From a virus: a stretch of 50,660 nt of DNA. The notes under the pieces are model-generated. The model worked only from the letters and a program-made list of their open reading frames with translations. It had not been told where the DNA came from and did no database searches. The DNA lies in the IMG/VR virus record IMGVR_UViG_3300026472_000004; one strand, given 5' to 3'. Below are positions 40,041 to 50,439 of the stretch, piece by piece (position 1 is the first letter of the stretch; each line of letters begins with the position of its first letter). The translations under genes were made by a program, and so were the position numbers.

Positions 40041-40301
40041 ATGGCAGATAATCAACAAATTGTAGAGGCTTCAACTGGCGTGGTAGCTGGCAAAGTTATT
40101 ACATATAGCGGTAGTACTGCTGGTGCTATTACTGCATGGCTTGGGAGTATTGATTTAGCATTTTGGTTCAGTATTTTGATTGCGATTGCAGGCTTAATCA
40201 TGAACTGGTATTACGCGCGCAAGAAAGATAAACGCGATGAACTTGAACATAAAGCATATTTGGAAAGCTTAAAGGATAAATGCAATGTCAAACAAGACTA
40301 A
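40041..40301 (+). CDS. Holin (two TM segments)
   Basis: 86 aa with hydrophobic segments and a charged C-terminus; directly upstream of the endolysin. Confidence 0.7.
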   Translation: MADNQQIVEASTGVVAGKVITYSGSTAGAITAWLGSIDLAFWFSILIAIAGLIMNWYYARKKDKRDELEHKAYLESLKDKCNVKQD

Positions 40302-40791
40302 AATCATAGTAACAACATTAAGTGCATCAGCGCTTTTTTTTACGTCTTTAATTGGCTATGAGGGGTATAAATCAAAGCCATATTTGGATAGTGCAAAAGT
40401 ACCAACTATAGGTATCGGATCTACATCATATGAAAACGGCACAAAAGTCAAAATGACTGACAAGCCGATCAATAAAGAACGTGCAGTTCAAATTGCCAAG
40501 GCTCATATTGCCAAAGATGAAGTTGCATTTCGCAAGTCTTTGCAGGGCGTGAAGCTAACTCAGACTGAATATGATGTGTATTTGGACTTTGTTTACAACT
40601 ATGGCCAAGCCAATTGGAATGGCTCATCGATGCTCCGTAATCTTAAAGCAGGGCAATACAAACAGGCCTGTTCATCATTACTGAAATACAAATATGTTGC
40701 CAAGCGTGATTGTTCGATCCGTTCTAATGGTTGTTATGGCGTTTGGACTAGGCAACAAGATCGTTATAACAAGTGTATGGGGGTGCAGTAA
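40285..40791 (+). CDS. Endolysin, GH24 (T4 lysozyme-like) with N-terminal SAR-type anchor
   Basis: E-x8-D-x5-T triad in YEGYKSKPYLDSAKVPT. The N-terminal stretch IIVTTLSASALFFTSLIG is hydrophobic. Confidence 0.85.
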   Translation: MSNKTKIIVTTLSASALFFTSLIGYEGYKSKPYLDSAKVPTIGIGSTSYENGTKVKMTDKPINKERAVQIAKAHIAKDEVAFRKSLQGVKLTQTEYDVYLDFVYNYGQANWNGSSMLRNLKAGQYKQACSSLLKYKYVAKRDCSIRSNGCYGVWTRQQDRYNKCMGVQ

Positions 40792-41412: not shown

Positions 41413-42507
41413 GTGAAAAAAAATGTAGGAATTATATTTGGAGGAAAATCAACAGAACATGAAGTATCCCTTCAATCTGCAAGAAATATTGTTGATGCTA
41501 TTGATAAAGAAAAATTTGATGTGACATTGATAGGCATAGATAAAGATGGGATTTGGCATCTTAATGAGAGTACTAAATTTCTACTAAACTCCAATGATCC
41601 AAGTCTTATAGCCTTACATCCATCTGGAAGAAATGTAGCATTTATTCCAGGGAAAAAAGAACAACAAATTATTGAGTTCCAAAAAAAAGCACTATCACAG
41701 TTAGATGTAATCTTTCCTATTGTCCATGGAACTCTTGGAGAAGATGGCTCATTACAAGGGTTACTGAAAATGGTAAATTTACCATTCGTAGGCTCTCAAG
41801 TATTAAGCTCTGCTATATGTATGGATAAAGATGTCTCAAAGAGATTATTACGAGATGCAGGGTTAAACGTTACACCATATATAAGGCTAACTAAACAAAA
41901 TAGAAAGAATATAAATTTTGATACTGTATGCTCTAAATTAGGTTTACCGCTATTCGTTAAACCAGCTAATCAAGGATCATCAATTGGTGTTAGTAAAGTA
42001 AATACTATAGAAGAGTTTGAAATAGCATTAGATACAGCATTTACCTATGATAATAAAGTGTTAATTGAAACAGGTATTGATGGCAGAGAGATAGAGTGTG
42101 CTGTTATTGGTAATCACAAACCTAAAGCAAGTGTTTGTGGGGAGATTGAACTATCAGATAGTTTCTATTCTTATGATACAAAATATATTAATGAAAAAGG
42201 TGCTAAAGTAACGATACCAGCCAATATCTCAGCTGAATTGAGTGAAAAAATTAAAAATATAGCTATCAATGCATATGAAATTTTAGAATGCACAGGTCTT
42301 GCCAGAGTAGATGTTTTTTTAACAAAAGATGGCACTGTCTATATTAATGAAATAAATACATTACCCGGTTTTACAAATATAAGTATGTTTCCCAAGTTGT
42401 GGGAAGCAAGTGGATTAAGCTATTCTGACTTGATTACCTATTTAATTGAATTAGCTATAGAGTATCACCAAGAGCAGAACTTAGTACTTGAGCCAAAATT
42501 AATATAA
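41413..42507 (+). CDS. ddl: D-alanine--D-alanine ligase, DdlA-type (GTG start)
   Basis: [44 protein letters not shown] and [10 protein letters not shown] motifs; 364 aa, as for DdlA. Confidence 0.9.
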
Positions 42508-42782: not shown

Positions 42783-43670
42783 TTAGATTACGATATTCTC
42801 AGATCGAGCACTTGAGATGTATTCCAGATTAAAATCTCCATGATTGTATTGATTAAAAGTTACACCATATTTTTTTTGAAAAGATAATACAGATAAAATT
42901 GATGTTGCAATAGTTGCAAGAGGAATATTATTTGCATGAATGTCATGTATTATTGCAGGGGCATTTAATCCTAAAGCCAAAAGAGCATCACTTTTTAAGT
43001 CAATGTTTACCTCAACATCACTTTTTTTAATTATTTTAAAACGTTCAACAACTGTTTTATCTAATTCCAGAATTGCATTTTCAAACCGTTTTAACTCAGT
43101 TTTTCTAATTACATCAATTTCTTCAGTATTTAACTTTTTTAAGAATTGGTCCATTGTAGAATGCAGACCTTCAAGCTCAGAAGATCTTCTTTCTTTAAAT
43201 TCAAGCAAATCGTTTAAAGAAAAATTTCCACTAGCTGATGGAATTGGTAGTGCGTTAGTTATTTTAAGTCTTAAAGTATCTTTTTTTGTTGCATGTCCTG
43301 GAAGATAAATCGGATCACCTGACATGTGGTGAATGATCCAATCACTATCTTGATCATTTAGCTTTTGCTTAGCAATTTCTCCAAATGTCCAATGCACGTG
43401 TTGTGCTACATCTACCTTACCAATAATTGGTAAAATAGGTCGCTCTAAAATGTTTAATGACTTAAGCTCATTTTCAAAAGGTAATCCAAAATGAATTGCT
43501 TGACTGGTTGGGATCGCGATTTTATCCCAATACATAATGTAGTAAAAGATATCTTCGGGAAGATAAGATCTTTCAAGAAATAAACTATTCCCATTGATAG
43601 ACATTATTCCATTTGGGGCAACGATTCCTCTTTGTACTTTTCTTTTCTTAAATTGAATGATGTTTGACAT
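42783..43670 (-). CDS. Orphan 295-aa protein of unknown function
   Basis: Long ORF with its own near-consensus promoter; no catalytic motif recognised. Confidence 0.7.
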   Translation of the reverse strand: MSNIIQFKKRKVQRGIVAPNGIMSINGNSLFLERSYLPEDIFYYIMYWDKIAIPTSQAIHFGLPFENELKSLNILERPILPIIGKVDVAQHVHWTFGEIAKQKLNDQDSDWIIHHMSGDPIYLPGHATKKDTLRLKITNALPIPSASGNFSLNDLLEFKERRSSELEGLHSTMDQFLKKLNTEEIDVIRKTELKRFENAILELDKTVVERFKIIKKSDVEVNIDLKSDALLALGLNAPAIIHDIHANNIPLATIATSILSVLSFQKKYGVTFNQYNHGDFNLEYISSARSENIVI

Positions 43671-43746: not shown

Positions 43747-45042
43747 TCACTTAACTTTTATCATCCCATTCTTCGTAAAATAATTCTTAGACAACATATC
43801 TCGACTCATTGACCACTTACGATCTTTGAAATAACACGGACCTACTGAAATCTTAGATTTACCGAATTTACTTTGAATATCTTCATAAGCCTGCATCAAA
43901 TTTTCATTTAATGTTCTTGTTTCATGATCTGAAAGCAGGTCGGGGATATGATTTGATTTCAGAATTAACTCTGAATAAAACACACCACATTTTTTGTACT
44001 TGATACCTGGTTTATATATCTTCTCAAGTAAAAGATATGCGACTTCAACCAAATTTAAAACACAATCAGTTGGTTCAGCAAACTTATAAGTCTGTGCTTT
44101 GCTATAGTAAGGAACAGACGCATCAAATGGATTCGATTGAACAAAAGCCGTAATCACACCACACAATAACTTTTCTTTTCTCAAACGCCCAACAGCGTCT
44201 TGGACATACTTAGCCATTGCTTCTTTCAAGTCCTGCAGCTCTGTGATTTTCACGCCAAAGGATCGGCTTGCTACAATTTGCTGCTTTGGTTTTGGCTGAT
44301 CGTCAATCGGCATACATGAGATACCTTGTAGTTCTAAAACAGTTCTTTGCATGCAAACTGTAAACATTTTTCCCATAATAGGGGGATTTGCTTTGGATAA
44401 ATCCAAAACGGTTTTAATCCCCATATCATTGAGCTTTTTATTTTGCTTTCTGCCCACGCCCCAAACTTCGCCAACTTCTACTAAAGACCAAAAGTAATCT
44501 CTATGCTTCGGATTCATATTTGCTAAATCACAGACTCCATTAAACCGCTTTCCTTTCTTAGCCATGTAATTAGCAATCTTTGCTTCAGTCTTAGATCTCC
44601 CTATACCAATAGAAACAGGCAATCCAATCCATTCCTGGATGCGCTCTCTCATGCCTTGGCAATACTCGACAAGATCATAATTATGTTTAAAGCTTGTGAG
44701 ATCTAGAAAGCATTCATCAATTGAATATATTTCTTGTTCGTGTGGCGCGACATAGCCAGCGAGAATTGAATGAAACCGACGTGACATTTCAGCGTAAATT
44801 GCATAGTTACTTGAAAGTACTTGCACATGGTTTTTCTGAACTACATCTTTGATCTGAAAAAGTGGCACACCCATTTTAATGCCCATTGCTTTTGCTTCAT
44901 TGCTACGGGCTACTGCACATCCATCATTGTTTGAGAGTACGATGACAGGGACATTGTTCAGCTTGGGGTTAAAGAAACGCTCACACGAGACATAGCAATT
45001 ATTGATATCAATAAGTGCAAATATCTTTTCTTCATGTTTCAT
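43747..45042 (-). CDS. umuC: Y-family DNA polymerase V catalytic subunit UmuC
   Basis: The N-terminus (FALIDINNCYVSCERFFNP...VVLSNNDGC) is typical of UmuC. Overlaps the umuD stop. Confidence 0.9.
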   Translation of the reverse strand: MKHEEKIFALIDINNCYVSCERFFNPKLNNVPVIVLSNNDGCAVARSNEAKAMGIKMGVPLFQIKDVVQKNHVQVLSSNYAIYAEMSRRFHSILAGYVAPHEQEIYSIDECFLDLTSFKHNYDLVEYCQGMRERIQEWIGLPVSIGIGRSKTEAKIANYMAKKGKRFNGVCDLANMNPKHRDYFWSLVEVGEVWGVGRKQNKKLNDMGIKTVLDLSKANPPIMGKMFTVCMQRTVLELQGISCMPIDDQPKPKQQIVASRSFGVKITELQDLKEAMAKYVQDAVGRLRKEKLLCGVITAFVQSNPFDASVPYYSKAQTYKFAEPTDCVLNLVEVAYLLLEKIYKPGIKYKKCGVFYSELILKSNHIPDLLSDHETRTLNENLMQAYEDIQSKFGKSKISVGPCYFKDRKWSMSRDMLSKNYFTKNGMIKVK

Positions 45043-45656
45043 TTAAAGTTCTTAATAACTTTTGTGACAACACCCCAGATTACTAACTCTTGTTCGTTCC
45101 CTGGGAGGATAGGTTTGTATTCAATGTTTTCTGGTTTTAGCCAAACAGCGGGTAAATTTCTGAGATCATTTTCATTATGAAAAATATCAAACAATTCATC
45201 ATGTGACATTCTTTGTGTAATCATCATTCTTTTTACAGTGAAATCATTGTCAATGAATGCGATAACAATATCTTGATGCTGTGAGCGAATGCTTCTATCG
45301 ACAATTAAATAGTCATTTATATCAATTCCAATATCTCTCATCGAAAGAGACTCAACTTGAACAATGAATGTGGCTTCTTTATTTGAAATAAGCAAATCAT
45401 TCATATCTACGGTTTTATCTATGTAATCTTCTGCTGGGGACGGGAAACCTGCAGCAACTTTATTGAGAACAAGCGGAATAGAATATTTAGTAATTGCTTG
45501 AAAAGATGAGATATTGGATATATCAGATAGGCATTTTGATTTAGATGAATATGCTCTGATATCAATAACTTTAGAGTCTTTCAAGTGGGCTAGACTTGCT
45601 TCATTTAGCTTTAACAACTTTGCTTTTGATGAACTGTCATCTAATTTAATATCCAT
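45039..45656 (-). CDS. umuD: UmuD-like S24 peptidase with extended N-terminus (205 aa)
   Basis: AAGFPSPAEDY cleavage-site region (A69-G70), with Ser105 (SLSM) and Lys142 (TVKR) spaced 37 residues apart as in UmuD. Confidence 0.85.
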   Translation of the reverse strand: MDIKLDDSSSKAKLLKLNEASLAHLKDSKVIDIRAYSSKSKCLSDISNISSFQAITKYSIPLVLNKVAAGFPSPAEDYIDKTVDMNDLLISNKEATFIVQVESLSMRDIGIDINDYLIVDRSIRSQHQDIVIAFIDNDFTVKRMMITQRMSHDELFDIFHNENDLRNLPAVWLKPENIEYKPILPGNEQELVIWGVVTKVIKNFK

Positions 45657-45666
45657 AAAAACACCA

Positions 45667-45718
45667 CTTGATTACGTTACGTATTCAAGATTTTAGATTG
45701 TATGGTTTTAAATTTCAA
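45667..45718 (-). promoter_or_regulatory. umuD promoter (TTGAAA-N17-TAAAAT) with 23-bp palindromic operator CTTGATTACGTTACGTATTCAAG
   Basis: Palindrome at 45667-45689 (10 of 11 pairs) directly downstream of the -10 (45690-45695). Confidence 0.6.
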
Positions 45719-45748
45719 ATTTAAAAGCTGTGGATAATCAGTCTTAAT

Positions 45749-46393
45749 TTAAAAAAGGTCACTTTGTTTGGCTACTTCTGATGAGTGGTCACGCGGAAAA
45801 GTGACAAATTCATCACGCATTTCCAAAAAATATTCATGGGCATGCTTATGGTCTGCATTAAACCAGTCATTTCTGTATTCTTCTGGAATGACAATGATTG
45901 AGCGTTTTTCATCTGTAGGTGCATGAAATTGCTTCATAAAAGGGTGGTTGTCAGAATTTATTGTAAGCATTGAAAACGATCTGACTTTTGAATCTTTAAT
46001 TACTGCATCATCATAAATGGCAGCAACTGTAAACGGTTGACCATCTTCTCGCTTGATTGTGTACCAATGAGATTTACCGTCTATATATTTCGGCTCATAG
46101 AATTCTTGAACAGGGACGAGACAAAATTTGCTGTACTTCCATGCGTGTCTAAAACTTGGTTTCTCTGCAACAGTTTCTGTTCGAGCATTATAAGTATAAG
46201 AACTAAACTTAAAATCTTTAGCCCAGCTTGGCAAAAGCCCAAACTTGCCGAAATCCAAATCAAAACCTTTCATGATGATGGGTGCATGATAACCTGGATA
46301 GATGTGTGGCTTAAGATCAAGTTCTAGCTGATCAACTTCGATATCCAGAAGTGATAAGGCTTCTCTTGTTGGAATTTCATAATTTGAGCACAT
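45749..46393 (-). CDS. SOS-response-associated peptidase (SRAP/YedK-like)
   Basis: MCSNY N-terminus with catalytic Cys2, size, and linkage to umuDC. Confidence 0.8.
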   Translation of the reverse strand: MCSNYEIPTREALSLLDIEVDQLELDLKPHIYPGYHAPIIMKGFDLDFGKFGLLPSWAKDFKFSSYTYNARTETVAEKPSFRHAWKYSKFCLVPVQEFYEPKYIDGKSHWYTIKREDGQPFTVAAIYDDAVIKDSKVRSFSMLTINSDNHPFMKQFHAPTDEKRSIIVIPEEYRNDWFNADHKHAHEYFLEMRDEFVTFPRDHSSEVAKQSDLF

Positions 46394-46454: not shown

Positions 46455-47789
46455 TTATTTAAATGTTACTTCACTTAATGGAATTTCAACAGTACCACAA
46501 GCTTTGAATACATGAGGTAAATGATTTACAAAGTATAATGACAAATTTTGATCATCAAAAGAAAAATCTAAGTCTGATGTGCTATTTTCTTCAACATACG
46601 TTATTAAAATTTCTTTAGCGTCATCTTCAGCATATTTATAGATTAGATATTCTAACTCCTCATTGTAATTTATATCAAAAATATCGTATAAACCAACCTG
46701 TATAATATGTGGATTTAATTTAAAATTTATAGAGTTCATATAATAGTTGGGATGGGGTGATCCAAAAAATTCATATTGTGAAAAACAAATACTTAAATAG
46801 TCTTGATCAAGTCTTTGTATTGTATATCCTGAATCTACTTCAAAAGAGTGATCTAAGCTGCTTTCAATTAAATAATCAATATCCTCCAAGGTGTAAATAC
46901 GAATATCATTAATTATTTTATAACCCAATCTTTGAATAAAAGAGTTTATATATTTTGAGTCGAAATTTGGATTTTCCAAGAAAAATGGAATATTAATATT
47001 GCTATCTATTTTTATACGTTTATCAACTTCAAGAGCTAAAGAAATATTTTGATAAGAAAGTTGATGTTGACTTATATTTTTTTTCCTAAAGATATATGCT
47101 CCACCTTCATCACCTGAAAACTTTAATGCACCATGATCAGGAGTTTGCCTTTTATCTAATGGGAAATTTAATATCGTTTTTTCACAAAATGCACTGAAAC
47201 TTAAATCTTGGAGAATATTATCTTTTAAAGTTAATTGAATTGCTTTATTGAAAGGGCTATTATCATTGGGATCTCCATCACTAACTTTTTCTAAACCACC
47301 AGATGTTAATGCTTGTCTGGATCTATTTTTAGTTAAAGCATTTATACCACCACCCCTAGTTTTATTAAATATAGCTCCAGAAAAACAACTGTCAGATATC
47401 AAAGCAATATTTTTGGCTTTAGAGTGTAAAAAAAATGATAATAGAGTGTTAATATCAAACCACGTAGTAGGATCATCGAAAATACTGTCAGAACATAACC
47501 AATATCCTGTTTTTAAGTGATCATTATATTCTCCATGACCAGCGTAAATAATTAAAAGTGTATCTAATTCTAGAGCATTATAAAATTCTTGATTTAAGCA
47601 CTTATAAATATAAGATAAAGTTGTTTGTTCAGGCTCACTTAGAAGTTGAATTTGTGATTCTTCATATTCAAAGTCATATTCCGAAGTAAGAATACTAAGA
47701 ATACTATTTACATCATTAAGACAGTTACTTAAATTTTGTTGTGGAGCTTTACTATATTTATCTATTGCTATAGCTATTATTTTATTCAT
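46455..47789 (-). CDS. Caspase-like (peptidase C14) protease fused to a DUF4163/DUF3298 (RsiV/PdaC-like) C-terminal domain
   Basis: His85 in IYAGHGE (47535-47537) and Cys135 in SDSCFSG (47385-47387). The C-terminal segment YLSICFSQYEFFGSPHPNYYMNSINFKLNP...LYDIF resembles DUF3298. Confidence 0.7.
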   Translation of the reverse strand: MNKIIAIAIDKYSKAPQQNLSNCLNDVNSILSILTSEYDFEYEESQIQLLSEPEQTTLSYIYKCLNQEFYNALELDTLLIIYAGHGEYNDHLKTGYWLCSDSIFDDPTTWFDINTLLSFFLHSKAKNIALISDSCFSGAIFNKTRGGGINALTKNRSRQALTSGGLEKVSDGDPNDNSPFNKAIQLTLKDNILQDLSFSAFCEKTILNFPLDKRQTPDHGALKFSGDEGGAYIFRKKNISQHQLSYQNISLALEVDKRIKIDSNINIPFFLENPNFDSKYINSFIQRLGYKIINDIRIYTLEDIDYLIESSLDHSFEVDSGYTIQRLDQDYLSICFSQYEFFGSPHPNYYMNSINFKLNPHIIQVGLYDIFDINYNEELEYLIYKYAEDDAKEILITYVEENSTSDLDFSFDDQNLSLYFVNHLPHVFKACGTVEIPLSEVTFK

Positions 47790-48127: not shown

Positions 48128-49177
48128 ATGTTTAAAGTTAAAAGAAATCCTCAAAAATTTGAACCTTTCGATTTGTTTTCTACTTTGGTAGAAGAGTTAG
48201 GTTATAACATTAATGATATTGATGTTGTAGAAAAGGTAACAGAGATATTTTCTAACAGCGTAAAAGATGCTAAGTCTAAAGATATTATGCTCCATGGAGC
48301 CAGAAATGAAGGGCTTTTTTCATACATAGTCAGAGGTATGAATTCAGTTAAATTTATTAAAAAAGAAGATGCAGGAGATGCTTATGCTTCAACAACTGAA
48401 GCCATTCAAATACCAGATTATAGAATTATATTAGAGGATGGTTCATTAATATTTGTTGAGGTAAAAAACTGGAATAAAGATTATGATAAAAATTTTAATT
48501 TAGATGTAAAATACGTTGAAAGATTAGAAAATTATTGTAGCTTAAATAAGGGTAAATTATTTATTGCAGTTTATTATAGATGCATAAATAGATGGGTTAT
48601 GCTACAAAGTAATAAGTTTATTAAAGAAAATAAAAGGTTTAAAATTTCACTTGAGAATGCATTAATAAATTCAGAGTTCTCACGTTTAGGAGATTTGAGT
48701 TTTGCATTATATTCACCTTTAGAAATCTATTTTGAGTTTGGTGAGAGTACTACAATTGATAAGATTGAAGGTAATATTTACACTTATAAAGGAAAGATTA
48801 ATAATATAATTATTAAAAGTGGTGATAAAGAAATTAAAGATAATGTTGGTAAAAATATTGTTTTTAATTTAGCTCATTACGGTGAATGGGAAGAAAATTA
48901 TGAGTATATTTTTGAAAAAGATCAACTAATAGGGCTAAAGCTTACATTTAGACCTGAAGATGGATTTTCTGATAATGAAATTGAATTGGGATTTAGGATA
49001 ATTGCACAATACAGTGTAATGTTGACATGTTTTTTTGCTCAAGAAACTATCAAAGAAAATCAAATTATTAAATTGTTATATTCTGGAAAACCAAGAAATG
49101 TAACATCATTTATTCCTCATGATTATAATAATCCAGATCTTCCAATAGCAACAATTAAAATGGTAACTTTAGATTAA
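48128..49177 (+). CDS. PD-(D/E)xK nuclease-like protein with uncharacterised C-terminal domain
   Basis: HGARNEGLF helix, then IPDYRIILEDGSLIFVEVKNW (D97, E111, K113; 48416-48466). Very AT-rich. Confidence 0.65.
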   Translation: MFKVKRNPQKFEPFDLFSTLVEELGYNINDIDVVEKVTEIFSNSVKDAKSKDIMLHGARNEGLFSYIVRGMNSVKFIKKEDAGDAYASTTEAIQIPDYRIILEDGSLIFVEVKNWNKDYDKNFNLDVKYVERLENYCSLNKGKLFIAVYYRCINRWVMLQSNKFIKENKRFKISLENALINSEFSRLGDLSFALYSPLEIYFEFGESTTIDKIEGNIYTYKGKINNIIIKSGDKEIKDNVGKNIVFNLAHYGEWEENYEYIFEKDQLIGLKLTFRPEDGFSDNEIELGFRIIAQYSVMLTCFFAQETIKENQIIKLLYSGKPRNVTSFIPHDYNNPDLPIATIKMVTLD

Positions 49178-49233: not shown

Positions 49234-50439
49234 TCAAATTTTAGTCAAAGTATTAATTTTATTTAACCATTTTGTGTAAGCTTCAGTTTGTTGAGGTATA
49301 TATTCATAATAATCATATGTGCCTTGTTCACCAGGCATAACATGACCGATCATCAATTCAGCAACATCACGTGAAGTAAAAGCACTGAAATTTGTTCGCG
49401 CGGTTCTTCTAAGATCATGAAGTGTCCAATGCTTCATATGGTAATCATGATGCCTGCGTAATCTTTCCATTACATTCGCAGGTAGTGCGATTGATGCGCC
49501 ATTTCCCATAGGTGTATCAGCATTATCATTTGTCAAAAAGTATTCACTGTTATTGTGTTCCATTGCCTCTTTGATTAAATCTTCCATTTCGGGGAGAATC
49601 GGTCGGACTATTTTACGCCCTGTTTTTTTACCTACTTTATTATTTGCTACTGGTACGATCCAAACTTTACGTTTTAAATCAAAATCACTTTTCTTAGCCT
49701 TTCTTAACTCACCATTACGGCAACCAAACATCAAGCAAAGCTTAAGGAATATTTTATTTTTAGGTAGGATCTTCGACTCTTCTATGGCCATTAGAACCAT
49801 AGTTATTTCTTCATCGGTTAGAATCCGATTGACTCTATTTTTTTCTATTCCTAAATCTTCTTTTGCATAAATATCTGATAGGGCATTCACTTCAAGCAAT
49901 TCACGCTTCTTAGCCCATTTTAAAACTTGTTTGGCATTGGTGAGCACTCTTTCAGCAATTGAGGGTTTTTCTTCTGCTAATTCCTCTAAAATCGCAAGCC
50001 ATTGTTGTAGTGTAATTCGGTCAATAGGAAGATCGCCGATTTCGGGAAATACATGTAACTCGAAAGAGGTCTTAATATCTGCAGCTGAAGTTTTCTTTTT
50101 TAAGCAATAACTTTCATACCAATCTGTAAACACTTCTTTTAGCGTTGTTGCATCAATATATTTTTGCTGTTGTACACGTATTTCAATTTTTGGATTTTGA
50201 CCTTTATCAAGTAGTGCGCGCATTTCATAAGCTTTAGATCGTGCATCTTTAAGTGATAAATGAGGGTAGGACCCTAAATCTAGTCTTTCAGCTTTACCAG
50301 CAAATCTATAGCGTAACTGAAAAACAATTTTGCCCTTAGGAGATACACGGACACTCATTGAGTCTCGATCTGCAACTTCTTCAACTTTATCTCGTACCTT
50401 ACCATTATTGGCTTTAAGCCATGCCTCAGTTAAAGCCAT
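49234..50439 (-). CDS. int: Tyrosine integrase, P4-type (DUF4102 N-terminal domain)
   Basis: N-terminal arm-binding-like domain, HDLRRT and GH...Y catalytic motifs; adjacent to attR. Confidence 0.9.
   Translation of the reverse strand: MALTEAWLKANNGKVRDKVEEVADRDSMSVRVSPKGKIVFQLRYRFAGKAERLDLGSYPHLSLKDARSKAYEMRALLDKGQNPKIEIRVQQQKYIDATTLKEVFTDWYESYCLKKKTSAADIKTSFELHVFPEIGDLPIDRITLQQWLAILEELAEEKPSIAERVLTNAKQVLKWAKKRELLEVNALSDIYAKEDLGIEKNRVNRILTDEEITMVLMAIEESKILPKNKIFLKLCLMFGCRNGELRKAKKSDFDLKRKVWIVPVANNKVGKKTGRKIVRPILPEMEDLIKEAMEHNNSEYFLTNDNADTPMGNGASIALPANVMERLRRHHDYHMKHWTLHDLRRTARTNFSAFTSRDVAELMIGHVMPGEQGTYDYYEYIPQQTEAYTKWLNKINTLTKI

What the first reader, a model, noticed from the sequence alone, without database searches (positions are those of the whole stretch)
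46455..47072. C-terminal domain of the protease resembles the lysozyme-binding RsiV/PdaC (DUF4163-DUF3298) module
Residues from about 240 to 444 contain YLSICFSQYEFFGSPHPNYYMNSINFKLNP..IQVGLYDIF. This parallels the DUF3298 consensus as I recall it (..LSv...y.Y.GGAHG......N.Dl.tGk.l.L.DLF). In Bacillus RsiV this module is the receptor that binds lysozyme and triggers proteolysis. Here it has no signal peptide and is fused to a caspase-like protease. A speculative reading is a cytoplasmic sensor for a phage protein, possibly an endolysin, that switches on the protease.
Basis: inference. Interest (0 to 1): 0.7.

Follow-up and report, generated by a model that had tools for sequence, protein, structure and literature searches.

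The report
Caspase-like protease fused to RsiV-fold module
A prophage cargo gene encodes a cytoplasmic caspase-like protease whose C-terminal half has the fold of the lysozyme receptor RsiV; the same module is also fused to TIR domains, so it is probably the sensor of an undescribed single-gene anti-phage system, though nothing shows that it binds an endolysin.

Summary
Residues 240-444 of the 444-aa ORF (46455..47789, minus strand) form a DUF4163-DUF3298 module. The evidence is Pfam PdaC/DUF4163 (E 8.7e-7), a family profile against PDB sequences (3CYG 1.4e-9, 3S5T 5e-4), and a pLDDT-95 AlphaFold model. That model's only significant PDB matches are 3CYG, RsiV-lysozyme 5JEN, 3S5T and 4E72. The protein has no signal peptide or membrane segment. 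Its N-terminal half is a caspase/metacaspase-like protease with an invariant His85/Cys135 dyad.

New here: eight representative proteins in a whole-library search, plus four more from a second search, carry a closely related module fused to an N-terminal TIR domain. The same caspase domain also occurs with other C-termini. Of 17 family loci examined, 14 lie in prophage cargo, integrative or conjugative elements, or beside defence genes such as Septu and PD-Lambda-3.

The best reading is a stand-alone sensor-effector immune protein, with the RsiV-fold module as regulator of the protease. This is inferred, not shown. The endolysin idea has no support. MPT64, which shares only part of the fold, does not bind lysozyme, RsiV is not detectably similar in sequence, and related prophages carry different endolysin families. 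I rate it a new variant of a known kind, of moderate to high interest.

The parts
46455..47789 (-). Whole gene: 444-aa cytoplasmic caspase-like protease fused to a DUF4163-DUF3298 module (stop codon 46455..46457)
   Evidence: ORF list. An identical protein occurs on at least 24 public contigs, always between the integrase and the SRAP-umuDC genes of the same prophage. 225 homologues were found.
47085..47789 (-). Caspase/metacaspase-like protease domain, residues 1-235
   Evidence: Foldseek of the full-length model gives MALT1 paracaspase (1.9e-11) and metacaspases 4 and 9. phmmer against PDB sequences gives metacaspase-4 (E 0.003), with NCLND and DSCFSG aligned to GCVND and DSCHSG. NCBIfam caspase_w_EACC1 gives E 7.6e-13, below its cut-off. 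PADLOC 'caspase' gives 1.6e-7.
47535..47537 (-). Catalytic His85 (YAGHG)
   Evidence: Invariant in 42 aligned homologues. Codon checked.
47385..47387 (-). Catalytic Cys135 (SDSCFSG). Asp133 lies two residues upstream and Asp26 is at 47712..47714; together they are the predicted acidic S1 pocket.
   Evidence: C135 and D26 are invariant and D133 is 98% conserved. The motifs align with metacaspase motifs. The role in the S1 pocket is inferred from published metacaspase structures.
47337..47381 (-). Flexible loop, residues 137-151 (SGAIFNKTRGGGINA), with invariant R145-G-G-G: a candidate autoprocessing or regulatory site
   Evidence: The only segments with pLDDT < 50 in the full-length model are residues 137-139 and 142-151. 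R145, G146, G147 and G148 are invariant. The function is inferred.
47055..47084 (-). Poorly conserved interdomain linker, residues 236-245
   Evidence: Lowest conservation in the protein: 0.38 mean top-residue frequency over residues 236-259. No secondary structure in the model.
46710..47054 (-). DUF4163 (PdaC)-like subdomain, residues 246-360: two strands, a long helix, three strands
   Evidence: Pfam PF13739 matches residues 260-349. Secondary structure. Alignment to 3CYG. Foldseek.
46746..46763 (-). Signature loop G-S-P-H-P-N, residues 343-348 (family consensus G-G-x-H-P-N; GGAHG in 3CYG and 3S5T)
   Evidence: G343 is 88% conserved, P347 98% and N348 88%. The loop aligns with GGAHG of 3CYG and 3S5T. 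It is conserved in the TIR-fused paralogues.
46458..46709 (-). DUF3298-like subdomain, residues 361-444: helices, then a small sheet
   Evidence: The profile hit to 3S5T ('DUF3298 family protein') reaches profile position 199. Foldseek aligns 209 columns with 3CYG. There is a weak Pfam PgdA_N hit at residues 380-440. PF11738 itself gives no hit.

Best explanation
The gene encodes a stand-alone, cytoplasmic sensor-effector protein of the kind bacteria and their prophages use against incoming phages.

The N-terminal half is an active caspase/metacaspase-type cysteine protease, predicted to cut after Arg or Lys. The C-terminal half is a two-lobed DUF4163-DUF3298 module with the fold of the lysozyme receptor RsiV. 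It acts as the input domain.

Proposed mechanism:
1. At rest, the module keeps the protease inactive.
2. Binding of an infection-derived ligand changes its conformation or drives self-association. A phage protein is most likely, bound at the loops where the two lobes meet, as in RsiV.
3. This brings protease domains together and allows processing at the invariant, disordered R145-GGG loop.
4. The activated protease then cleaves cellular or phage proteins and aborts the infection.

In the paralogous proteins the same module would instead control a TIR NADase.

What is shown: the fold, the intact active site, the cytoplasmic location, the exchange of effectors on a shared module, and the location in mobile elements and defence islands. 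What is inferred: the defence function, the ligand, activation by proximity, the cleavage site and the substrates.
For: Fold of the C-terminal module.

Active protease: H85 and C135 are invariant, as are D26 and D133 in metacaspase-type motifs. The fold matches MALT1 and metacaspases.

Cytoplasmic location: no hydrophobic segment.

Effector exchange:
- phmmer of the module against 1.84 billion representative proteins returns only 41 hits.
- Most of the long, strong hits are caspase fusions. Eight proteins of about 350-360 aa carry TIR_2 (E 1e-20 to 1e-25) followed by the same module, with phmmer E-values from 1e-19 to 1e-8.
- A second search added four more TIR fusions (P0153-P0156).
- All conserve the KRG[YF]xQ[RK]E motif, in which the Glu lies where I recall TIR NADases having their catalytic residue.
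- The module's motifs (IPFF..N..FD..FIN, LS, GGxHPN, LNFxFxP, LP[HR]) are shared by both fusion types.

Reciprocal exchange: the same caspase domain (about 45% identity) occurs with a UVR-plus-helical C-terminus. More distant relatives are annotated with NACHT, a helicase and other domains.

Genomic context:
- In the window the gene lies in the cargo region between the integrase and the lysis cassette of a prophage inserted beside alaS.
- Homologues lie in the same kind of position in four other Acinetobacter prophage lineages, one of them beside a Septu system with PtuA E 8.5e-173.
- Elsewhere the gene sits beside an integrase, on a conjugative element, or next to PD-Lambda-3_B.
- Other neighbours are a SoFic-like gene, a TIR-TPR protein, a GT4-conflict/STAND protein, putAbiC and Hypoth_Ymh, and a nuclease-rich island downstream of groEL.
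- In total 14 of 17 loci fit this pattern.

Other points: no conserved partner gene exists across the family, and the module evolves faster than the protease (41% against 55% mean identity). As precedent, the type IV Thoeris caspase-like effector is Arg-specific and has a C-terminal domain proposed to receive the activating signal.
Against: - No experiment or publication links this architecture to phage defence.
- PADLOC has no model for it beyond a weak generic caspase hit.
- Three of 17 loci show no mobile-element or defence neighbours (L018, L019, L023).
- The module is not hypervariable, as some phage-protein sensors are.
- Effector exchange shows that the module is a portable functional unit. 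It does not show that the unit is a sensor rather than, for example, an oligomerisation or targeting domain.
- In Acinetobacter the tight linkage to umuDC and SRAP could indicate a DNA-damage role instead.
- The family is small, so the statistics on context are thin.
Confidence: 0.55

Rival explanations
1. One reading: the module is a cytoplasmic receptor for a phage endolysin or lysozyme, as RsiV is for hen egg-white lysozyme, and endolysin binding switches on the protease.
For: The fold matches the RsiV-lysozyme co-crystal chain 5JEN at E 7.6e-7. Endolysins accumulate in the cytoplasm late in infection, so they are available as a signal (general knowledge). The other characterised carriers of the fold that I know of (PdaC, PgdA) also act on peptidoglycan. 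There is a weak PgdA_N hit.
Against: - MPT64, which shares the beta-grasp fold of RsiV's DUF4163 half, did not bind lysozyme, and the RsiV authors conclude that binding is not general to such proteins (PMC5014341).
- RsiV contacts C-type lysozyme through specific loops (S169, P259, Y261). The RsiV sequence is not detectably similar to this family, even at E 10.
- Phage endolysins belong to other families than C-type lysozyme. The prophages carrying close homologues encode GH24 (window) or GH108.
- A sensor of endolysins in general would fire on induction of the host prophage itself.
- Late sensing leaves little time for a protective response.
Confidence: 0.07
2. The module is a receptor for a small molecule rather than a protein. 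Candidates are a peptidoglycan fragment released when a phage breaches or remodels the wall, or a nucleotide second messenger made elsewhere. It would then be analogous to SAVED, SLOG or Macro domains fused to TIR or protease effectors.
For: Fusions of one ligand-binding domain to either TIR or a caspase-like protease are typical of second-messenger effectors such as TIR-SAVED and SAVED-CHAT (general knowledge). The type IV Thoeris caspase is proposed to bind N7-cADPR through its C-terminal domain. The most conserved feature, the GGxHPN loop at the junction of the two lobes, is shared with distant secreted relatives. That fits an ancestral small-ligand site. The fold is associated with peptidoglycan-acting proteins (PMC5014341).
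Against: No cyclase, TIR or other signal-generating gene is conserved beside the gene in any of the 17 loci. No ligand is known for any member of the fold except lysozyme.
Confidence: 0.15
3. In Acinetobacter the protein belongs to a DNA-damage (SOS-like) module together with SRAP and umuD-umuC. It would be expressed after DNA damage or prophage induction and would cleave a repair, replication or regulatory protein. The C-terminal module would serve as a substrate adaptor rather than a phage sensor.
For: In all five Acinetobacter lineages examined (54-68% identity) the gene lies on the same strand directly next to umuD-umuC, with or without SRAP, in two different gene orders. The S24 protein here is 205 aa, long for a UmuD, which resembles the LexA-like UmuDAb regulators of Acinetobacter (the comparison rests on my own knowledge). 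The same caspase domain is elsewhere fused to a UVR motif.
Against: The linkage is absent outside Acinetobacter: none of the 12 Bacteroidota or Agrobacterium loci has umuDC or SRAP nearby. The region is a prophage cargo hot spot that also holds Septu, so adjacency may reflect shared cargo. The rival does not explain the TIR paralogues.
Confidence: 0.1
4. It is a housekeeping or developmental metacaspase-type protease, and the C-terminal domain is merely a structural or oligomerisation appendage with no role in conflict with phages.
For: Caspase homologues are very abundant in some Bacteroidota (Saprospiraceae, Lewinellaceae) with many architectures. Three loci have ordinary neighbours.
Against: Distribution is sporadic. 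The gene is carried on prophages, integrative elements and a conjugative element. Closely related sequences (47-50% identity) occur across phyla, which implies horizontal transfer.
Confidence: 0.1

Closest known systems
RsiV, the anti-sigma-V factor and lysozyme receptor of Bacillus, Clostridioides and Enterococcus (PDB 5JEN)
   Same: The same two-lobed DUF4163-DUF3298 fold (Foldseek E 7.6e-7). In both cases the module is coupled to a proteolytic event.
   Different: RsiV is a membrane protein whose module faces outward. It is the substrate of proteolysis by signal peptidase and then RasP, not fused to a protease. It is encoded next to sigV and binds C-type lysozyme through loops not recognisable here. 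The window protein is cytoplasmic, has no anti-sigma or membrane segment, has no sigma-factor neighbour, and is not similar to RsiV in sequence (PMC5014341).
3CYG (Fervidobacterium nodosum), 3S5T (BF2082) and 4E72 (PA4972): structural-genomics proteins of the DUF4163/DUF3298 family with unknown function
   Same: These are the closest relatives by sequence profile (3CYG E 1.4e-9; 3S5T 5e-4) and by fold (TM 0.65 for 3CYG). They share the LS...GGAH...N...L.L.D motif.
   Different: They are single-module proteins with no effector domain, and their functions are unknown. The window module forms a separate small clade that is found only fused to caspase or TIR domains.
Type IV Thoeris caspase-like effector (Rousset et al., Science 2025; bioRxiv 10.1101/2024.10.24.620036)
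   Same: [quoted passage not shown] It is Arg-specific and acts in abortive infection. The window protein has the acidic S1-pocket residues expected for Arg/Lys specificity.
   Different: Thoeris IV is a two-gene system in which a neighbouring TIR protein makes the signal N7-cADPR. No TIR gene accompanies this gene in the 17 loci, apart from an unrelated TIR-TPR gene in L020. I could not compare the two C-terminal domains, because no sequence or model of the Thoeris protein was at hand.
Modular single-protein immune sensors in which one input domain is paired with alternative effectors (Avs/NLR-like STAND proteins, TIR-SAVED and SAVED-CHAT, bacterial Schlafens, Shedu)
   Same: The same logic: exchangeable effector (caspase or TIR) on a shared input module, carried in defence islands and prophage cargo.
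   Different: There is no NTPase, SAVED or other known sensor domain. The input module is a fold previously characterised in extracytoplasmic proteins.
Metacaspases, orthocaspases and the paracaspase MALT1 (clan CD, family C14)
   Same: The protease fold, the His/Cys dyad and the GC.ND and DSC motifs.
   Different: Pfam PF00656 does not reach significance on the window protein itself, although it does on many homologues. The C-terminal module is unlike the p10, Ig or death-fold domains of those proteins.

Membership tests
DUF4163-DUF3298 (PdaC/RsiV/MPT64-type) module | Match to Pfam PF13739 (PdaC/DUF4163) at or above the gathering score | tested here: met
   The isolated domain scores 30.4 bits against a cut-off of 29.1 (E 8.7e-7). 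The whole protein scores 25.9 bits, so the match is marginal. Many homologues carry a precomputed PF13739 annotation.
DUF4163-DUF3298 (PdaC/RsiV/MPT64-type) module | Match to Pfam PF11738 (DUF3298) | tested here: not met
   No hit at E <= 10. The second lobe is supported only by the profile hit to 3S5T ('DUF3298 family protein', E 5e-4, reaching profile position 199) and by fold.
DUF4163-DUF3298 (PdaC/RsiV/MPT64-type) module | Two-lobed fold superposable on solved members | tested here: met
   The model has pLDDT 95. All six significant Foldseek PDB hits are members (3CYG, 5JEN, 3S5T, 4E72), and there is a gap to E 0.066.
DUF4163-DUF3298 (PdaC/RsiV/MPT64-type) module | Signature motif LS...y.GGAHG...N.d...g..l.L.DlF | tested here: met
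   LSICFSQYEFFGSPHPNYYMNSINFKLNP...LYDIF aligns column for column with the motif in 3CYG and 3S5T. The family variant is GGxHPN.
RsiV-type anti-sigma lysozyme receptors | N-terminal sigma-V-binding domain, a membrane segment and an extracytoplasmic module | tested here: not met
   The N-terminus is a caspase-like domain, and there is no hydrophobic segment (maximum hydropathy 0.93).
RsiV-type anti-sigma lysozyme receptors | Encoded next to an ECF sigma factor (sigV) | tested here: not met
   The neighbours are SRAP, umuD, umuC, an unknown 349-aa ORF and an integrase.
RsiV-type anti-sigma lysozyme receptors | Conserved lysozyme-contact loops (S169, P259, Y261 of B. subtilis RsiV) | tested here: inconclusive
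   The RsiV sequence is not matched by the family profile, even at E 10, so no residue correspondence could be made. Model coordinates for a structural alignment were not available to me.
RsiV-type anti-sigma lysozyme receptors | Binds lysozyme | not testable with these tools
   This needs ITC or a pull-down. The literature shows that MPT64, which shares part of the fold, does not bind lysozyme (PMC5014341).
Clan CD, family C14 caspase-like proteases | Catalytic His and Cys in the conserved strand-end positions, and the caspase fold | tested here: met
   H85 (GHG) and C135 (DSC) are invariant in 42 sequences. Foldseek gives MALT1 at 1.9e-11 and the metacaspases.
Clan CD, family C14 caspase-like proteases | Match to Pfam PF00656 above threshold | tested here: not met
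   PF00656 is not listed for the window protein at E <= 10. It is present in many homologues of 40-50% identity.
NCBIfam NF047832 'caspase, EACC1-associated type' | Score at or above the curated cut-off (140 bits) | tested here: not met
   48.4 bits. This is a resemblance of the caspase domain only.
Type IV Thoeris | Caspase-like effector encoded with a cognate TIR signal-producing gene | tested here: not met
   There is no TIR gene beside the gene in the window or in the Acinetobacter, Pseudopedobacter, Agrobacterium, Winogradskyella or conjugative-element loci.

The most novel reading that the evidence does not exclude
A fold characterised so far in extracytoplasmic proteins has been recruited into the cytoplasm as a pattern-recognition module of bacterial immunity; its only known ligand is lysozyme, bound by RsiV. 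The module would bind a phage protein directly (conceivably a muramidase-fold protein such as an endolysin or a tail lysin). It would switch on either a caspase-like protease or a TIR NADase, depending on which effector is fused. This would define a new family of single-gene defence systems carried by prophages of Acinetobacter and by mobile elements of Bacteroidota.
Probability: 0.3. Interest if true: 0.8.

Novelty: new variant of a known kind. Interest (0 to 1): 0.62.

Why it matters
If the reading is right, it adds a new input domain to the set of bacterial immune sensors. It also gives the widespread but largely uncharacterised DUF4163-DUF3298 fold a second function besides lysozyme sensing.

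[quoted passage not shown] That pairing would make the activation mechanism tractable to study.

The gene is carried by prophages of Acinetobacter, including the A. baumannii/calcoaceticus complex. It may therefore affect susceptibility of clinical strains to therapeutic phages.

Even if the defence role fails, the conserved placement beside umuDC and SRAP in Acinetobacter prophages would point to an unexplored link between a caspase-like protease and the DNA-damage response.

Tried and rejected
1. Sequence comparison with RsiV. Neither the full-length nor the C-terminal family profile hits any RsiV chain at E <= 10. The lysozyme-contact residues therefore could not be mapped, and I had no model coordinates for a structural alignment.

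2. A profile search of the 5.8-billion-protein collection with the C-terminal alignment returned only five proteins, all TIR fusions. It confirmed the TIR architecture but failed as a census of fusion partners.

3. Searches of sequenced phages and plasmids found no record with the full architecture, only caspase-domain relatives. The module has no significant match among predicted viral structures.

4. I looked for a conserved partner gene. A 158-aa membrane protein follows the gene in the Agrobacterium and conjugative-element subclade (68% identical between the two) but is absent elsewhere. The 349-aa ORF next to the window gene is absent from the A. bereziniae and A. soli loci. I rejected both as obligate partners.

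5. Promoter, terminator and inverted-repeat scans around the gene gave no enrichment and no convincing operator.

6. A simple phmmer screen for integrases, umuC, umuD and SRAP in ten further Bacteroidota loci found one integrase and no umuDC or SRAP. 'Always beside an integrase' is therefore not true, and the umuDC link is specific to Acinetobacter.

7. Literature searches for DUF4163, DUF3298, PdaC or RsiV together with caspase, TIR or phage defence found nothing relevant.

8. Membership in type IV Thoeris and in the EACC1-associated caspase family was considered and rejected.
Full report
THE OBSERVATION

The finding covers 46455..47072 on the minus strand. This is residues 240-444 (plus the stop codon) of a 444-aa ORF at 46455..47789.

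Four independent tests show that this half of the protein is a DUF4163-DUF3298 module.

- Pfam. PF13739 (named PdaC, formerly DUF4163) matches residues 260-349. For the isolated domain the E-value is 8.7e-7 and the score is 30.4 bits, against a gathering score of 29.1. For the whole protein the score falls just below the cut-off, at 25.9 bits. There is also a weak hit to the N-terminal domain of PgdA at residues 380-440.
- Sequence profile. A profile built from 24 C-terminal domains of the family hits two structural-genomics proteins of this family in the PDB. These are 3CYG (E 1.4e-9) and 3S5T, deposited as 'DUF3298 family protein' (E 5e-4). The printed alignment puts the family's LS...GGxHPN...N.F..P......L.D over the LS...GGAHG...N........L.L.D of 3CYG.
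- Structure prediction. AlphaFold2 on residues 240-444, with a 42-sequence alignment, gives a very confident model (pLDDT 95.1, pTM 0.89).
- Fold comparison. Foldseek of that model against 350,542 PDB chains returns six matches with E <= 1e-3. All are DUF4163-DUF3298 structures: 3CYG chains A and B (2.4e-9, TM 0.65), the RsiV-lysozyme complex 5JEN chains A and C (7.6e-7), 3S5T (2.4e-6) and 4E72 (1.1e-5). The next hit has E 0.066.

The RsiV paper lists 3CYG, 3S5T and 4E72 among the structural relatives of RsiV, with 3CYG as the best match (PMC5014341).

Two caveats remain. The Pfam model of DUF3298 itself (PF11738) does not match. RsiV is matched by fold only.

The protein has no signal peptide or membrane segment. 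The maximum 19-residue hydropathy is 0.93, and residue 2 starts the first strand of the protease fold.

THE REST OF THE PROTEIN

Residues 1-235 form a caspase/metacaspase-like domain.

- The full-length model (pLDDT 84, pTM 0.76) matches the MALT1 paracaspase (1.9e-11), plant and yeast metacaspases, and caspases 7 and 9.
- The sequence aligns with metacaspase-4 through the motifs NCLND / GCVND, YAGHG / YSGHG and SDSCFSG / SDSCHSG.
- In an alignment of 42 homologues (37-68% identical to the window protein), H85, C135 and D26 are invariant and D133 is 98% conserved.
- From what I know of metacaspase structures, the two aspartates line the S1 pocket. They predict cleavage after Arg or Lys. That step is inference.
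- The only poorly predicted stretches are residues 137-139 and 142-151, just after the catalytic Cys. They contain an invariant R145-G-G-G. I read this as a candidate self-processing or regulatory loop, again by inference.

THE FAMILY AND ITS RELATIVES

The protein search found 225 relatives. About a hundred clusters share the full architecture at 36-68% identity. They occur in Acinetobacter (the baumannii/calcoaceticus complex, pittii, soli, bereziniae), in many Bacteroidota (Mucilaginibacter, Chryseobacterium, Pseudopedobacter, Winogradskyella, Filimonas) and in one Agrobacterium assembly.

Public annotation already calls some of them 'caspase family protein', 'DUF4163 domain-containing protein' or 'PdaC/SigV domain-containing protein'. 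The domain combination is therefore visible to automated pipelines. I found no paper that discusses it.

The most informative result came from an exhaustive phmmer search with the C-terminal module alone against 1.84 billion representative proteins. It returned only 41 hits, so the module forms a small, separate clade within the fold. Most of the long, strong hits are caspase fusions, and the short ones look like fragments of such proteins. Eight proteins of 350-362 aa carry the module at their C-terminus behind a different N-terminal domain. Pfam identifies that domain as TIR_2, with E-values of 1e-20 to 1e-25. A further search added four more TIR fusions.

The modules of the TIR and caspase fusions align without difficulty and share all the conserved motifs. 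The TIR domains all keep a KRG[YF]xQ[RK]E motif. From memory, the Glu lies where TIR NADases have their catalytic residue.

In the other direction, the same caspase domain (about 45% identical) occurs with a quite different C-terminus: a UVR motif followed by a helical region. More distant caspase relatives on plasmids lie under genes annotated as NACHT-domain proteins, a helicase and others. They are very numerous in Saprospiraceae and Lewinellaceae.

Both halves of the window protein thus behave as exchangeable modules, and the module under study is paired with two classic immune effectors.

GENOMIC CONTEXT

The window is a prophage.

- Structural genes run on the plus strand to a tail protein, holin and GH24 lysozyme at 40285..40791.
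- The cargo block follows: a D-Ala-D-Ala ligase, a DUF6236 protein, umuC, an S24 peptidase of 205 aa, an SRAP protein, the caspase gene and an unknown 349-aa ORF.
- A tyrosine integrase lies at 49234..50439.
- On longer public contigs carrying the identical protein, the integrase abuts alaS.

Four other Acinetobacter lineages (54-62% identical proteins) have the gene in the same kind of place. It lies between an integrase and the lysis and tail genes, or beside the lysis and tail genes. It is always directly next to umuD-umuC, with SRAP either before or after it. In A. bereziniae the next genes are a Septu system (PtuA E 8.5e-173, PtuB 6e-71).

Outside Acinetobacter there is no umuDC or SRAP. 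The neighbours there are:

- an integrase and a VapE-like primase in Pseudopedobacter;
- a serine recombinase, RadC and a TraG coupling protein, that is, a conjugative element;
- PD-Lambda-3_B (E 2e-90) and DUF4238 in Agrobacterium;
- an island with an integrase and a SoFic-like gene in Winogradskyella;
- an island downstream of groEL holding a DUF4365 nuclease, a second C14 protease and a NucC-like DUF6602 protein;
- a TIR-TPR protein at the same groEL site in Chryseobacterium indologenes;
- a GT4-conflict/STAND protein in Pedobacter;
- putAbiC and Hypoth_Ymh in Filimonas;
- an integrase and a YhcG nuclease in a Chitinophagaceae genome.

Three loci (L018, L019, L023) are uninformative. In all, 14 of 17 loci place the gene in mobile-element cargo or beside defence genes. 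No partner gene is conserved across the family.

INTERPRETATION

The combination points to a stand-alone sensor-effector immune protein. Its features are an intact protease, a cytoplasmic location, a single gene with no conserved partner, carriage on prophages and other mobile elements, defence-gene neighbours, and an input module shared with TIR effectors.

I propose that the RsiV-fold module holds the protease inactive until it binds an infection-derived ligand. I further propose that binding promotes self-association and processing at the R145 loop. Proximity-driven activation would suit both a caspase and a TIR domain, which is why the effector exchange is informative.

The module also evolves faster than the protease (41% against 55% mean identity to the window protein). 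That is mildly consistent with an input domain.

The type IV Thoeris effector is the nearest precedent. [quoted passage not shown] Unlike this gene, it depends on a neighbouring TIR gene.

None of the functional steps is shown. I put the confidence at about 0.55.

THE ENDOLYSIN IDEA

- The RsiV authors tested MPT64, which shares the beta-grasp fold of RsiV's DUF4163 half, and found no lysozyme binding. They concluded that binding is not general to proteins with these domains.
- RsiV grips C-type lysozyme through loops bearing S169, P259 and Y261. RsiV has no detectable sequence similarity to this family, so those loops cannot be assumed here.
- Phage endolysins belong to other families. The prophages that carry close homologues of this gene encode GH24 in one case and GH108 in others.

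I give the endolysin version about 0.07.

OTHER RIVALS

- Small-molecule receptor (peptidoglycan fragment or nucleotide signal), about 0.15. It fits the fusion pattern but lacks any conserved signal-producing neighbour.
- A DNA-damage role tied to umuDC and SRAP in Acinetobacter, about 0.10. The linkage is striking but confined to one genus and to a cargo hot spot.
- A non-conflict housekeeping protease, about 0.10.

NOVELTY AND VERDICT

Sensor-effector fusions with caspase-like or TIR effectors are a known kind of system, and the domain pair is already flagged by automated annotation. New here are the use of an RsiV/PdaC-type fold, characterised so far in extracytoplasmic proteins, as a cytoplasmic input module, its sharing between caspase and TIR effectors, and its consistent carriage in prophage cargo and defence islands.

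I classify it as a new variant of a known kind. It deserves experimental follow-up, which is straightforward for a single gene. Interest: 0.62.

Noticed in passing
window 43747..46393 (-); also L005-L009, L098, L099, L100: In five Acinetobacter prophage lineages the caspase gene is always directly beside umuD-umuC, with an SRAP (SOS response associated peptidase) gene either before or after it. The S24 protein in the window is 205 aa, long for a UmuD and reminiscent of the LexA-like UmuDAb regulators. This could mean co-regulation by DNA damage.
   Followed up: partly
window 45706..45726: A perfect 10-nt inverted repeat, TTTTAAATTT-C-AAATTTAAAA, overlaps promoter-like hexamers (45718..45690, minus strand) just upstream of the umuD-like gene. 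It is a possible operator.
   Followed up: no
window 41413..42507 (+): A complete D-Ala-D-Ala ligase gene (Dala_Dala_lig_C E 9e-79) sits inside the prophage, between the lysis cassette and the cargo block. It is present in every copy of this prophage. This is unusual cargo for a phage.
   Followed up: partly
window 48128..49177 (+): A 349-aa ORF lies between the integrase and the caspase gene and is transcribed divergently from it. It has no hit in Pfam, NCBIfam or PADLOC. It is absent from the A. bereziniae and A. soli loci, so it is not an obligate partner, but it could be another cargo or defence gene.
   Followed up: partly
window 42783..43670 (-): A 295-aa DUF6236 protein (E 5e-16) lies at the end of the umuDC block. 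Its function is unknown.
   Followed up: no
L012 7340..7816 and L017 8340..8816: In the Agrobacterium and conjugative-element subclade, a 158-aa protein with an N-terminal hydrophobic helix starts 2 nt after the caspase gene's stop codon. The two copies are 68% identical. It may be a subclade-specific partner and has no Pfam hit.
   Followed up: partly
L014 2605..12121; L020 8223..14120; L025 8221..10720: In Chryseobacterium-like genomes the gene lies just downstream of groEL (L020, L025) or about 3 kb downstream, in an island that includes a truncated Cpn60 fragment (L014). The site holds different putative defence genes in different genomes (DUF4365, a second C14 protease, DUF6602, TIR-TPR). 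It looks like an integration hot spot.
   Followed up: partly
L098 10095..12018: A complete Septu system (PtuA and PtuB) lies immediately after umuC in the A. bereziniae prophage cargo region.
   Followed up: yes
P0103-P0120 (for example P0106, 481 aa): A sister family has the same caspase domain followed by a UVR (UvrB/UvrC) motif and a helical C-terminal region of about 180 aa with no Pfam match.
   Followed up: partly
L037-L097 (genome-contig scan): Caspase-domain relatives (about 30-35% identity, N-terminal 240 residues only) are very numerous in Saprospiraceae, Lewinellaceae and Phaeodactylibacter genomes, often with several copies per genome. Their C-terminal regions do not match this protein.
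   Followed up: no
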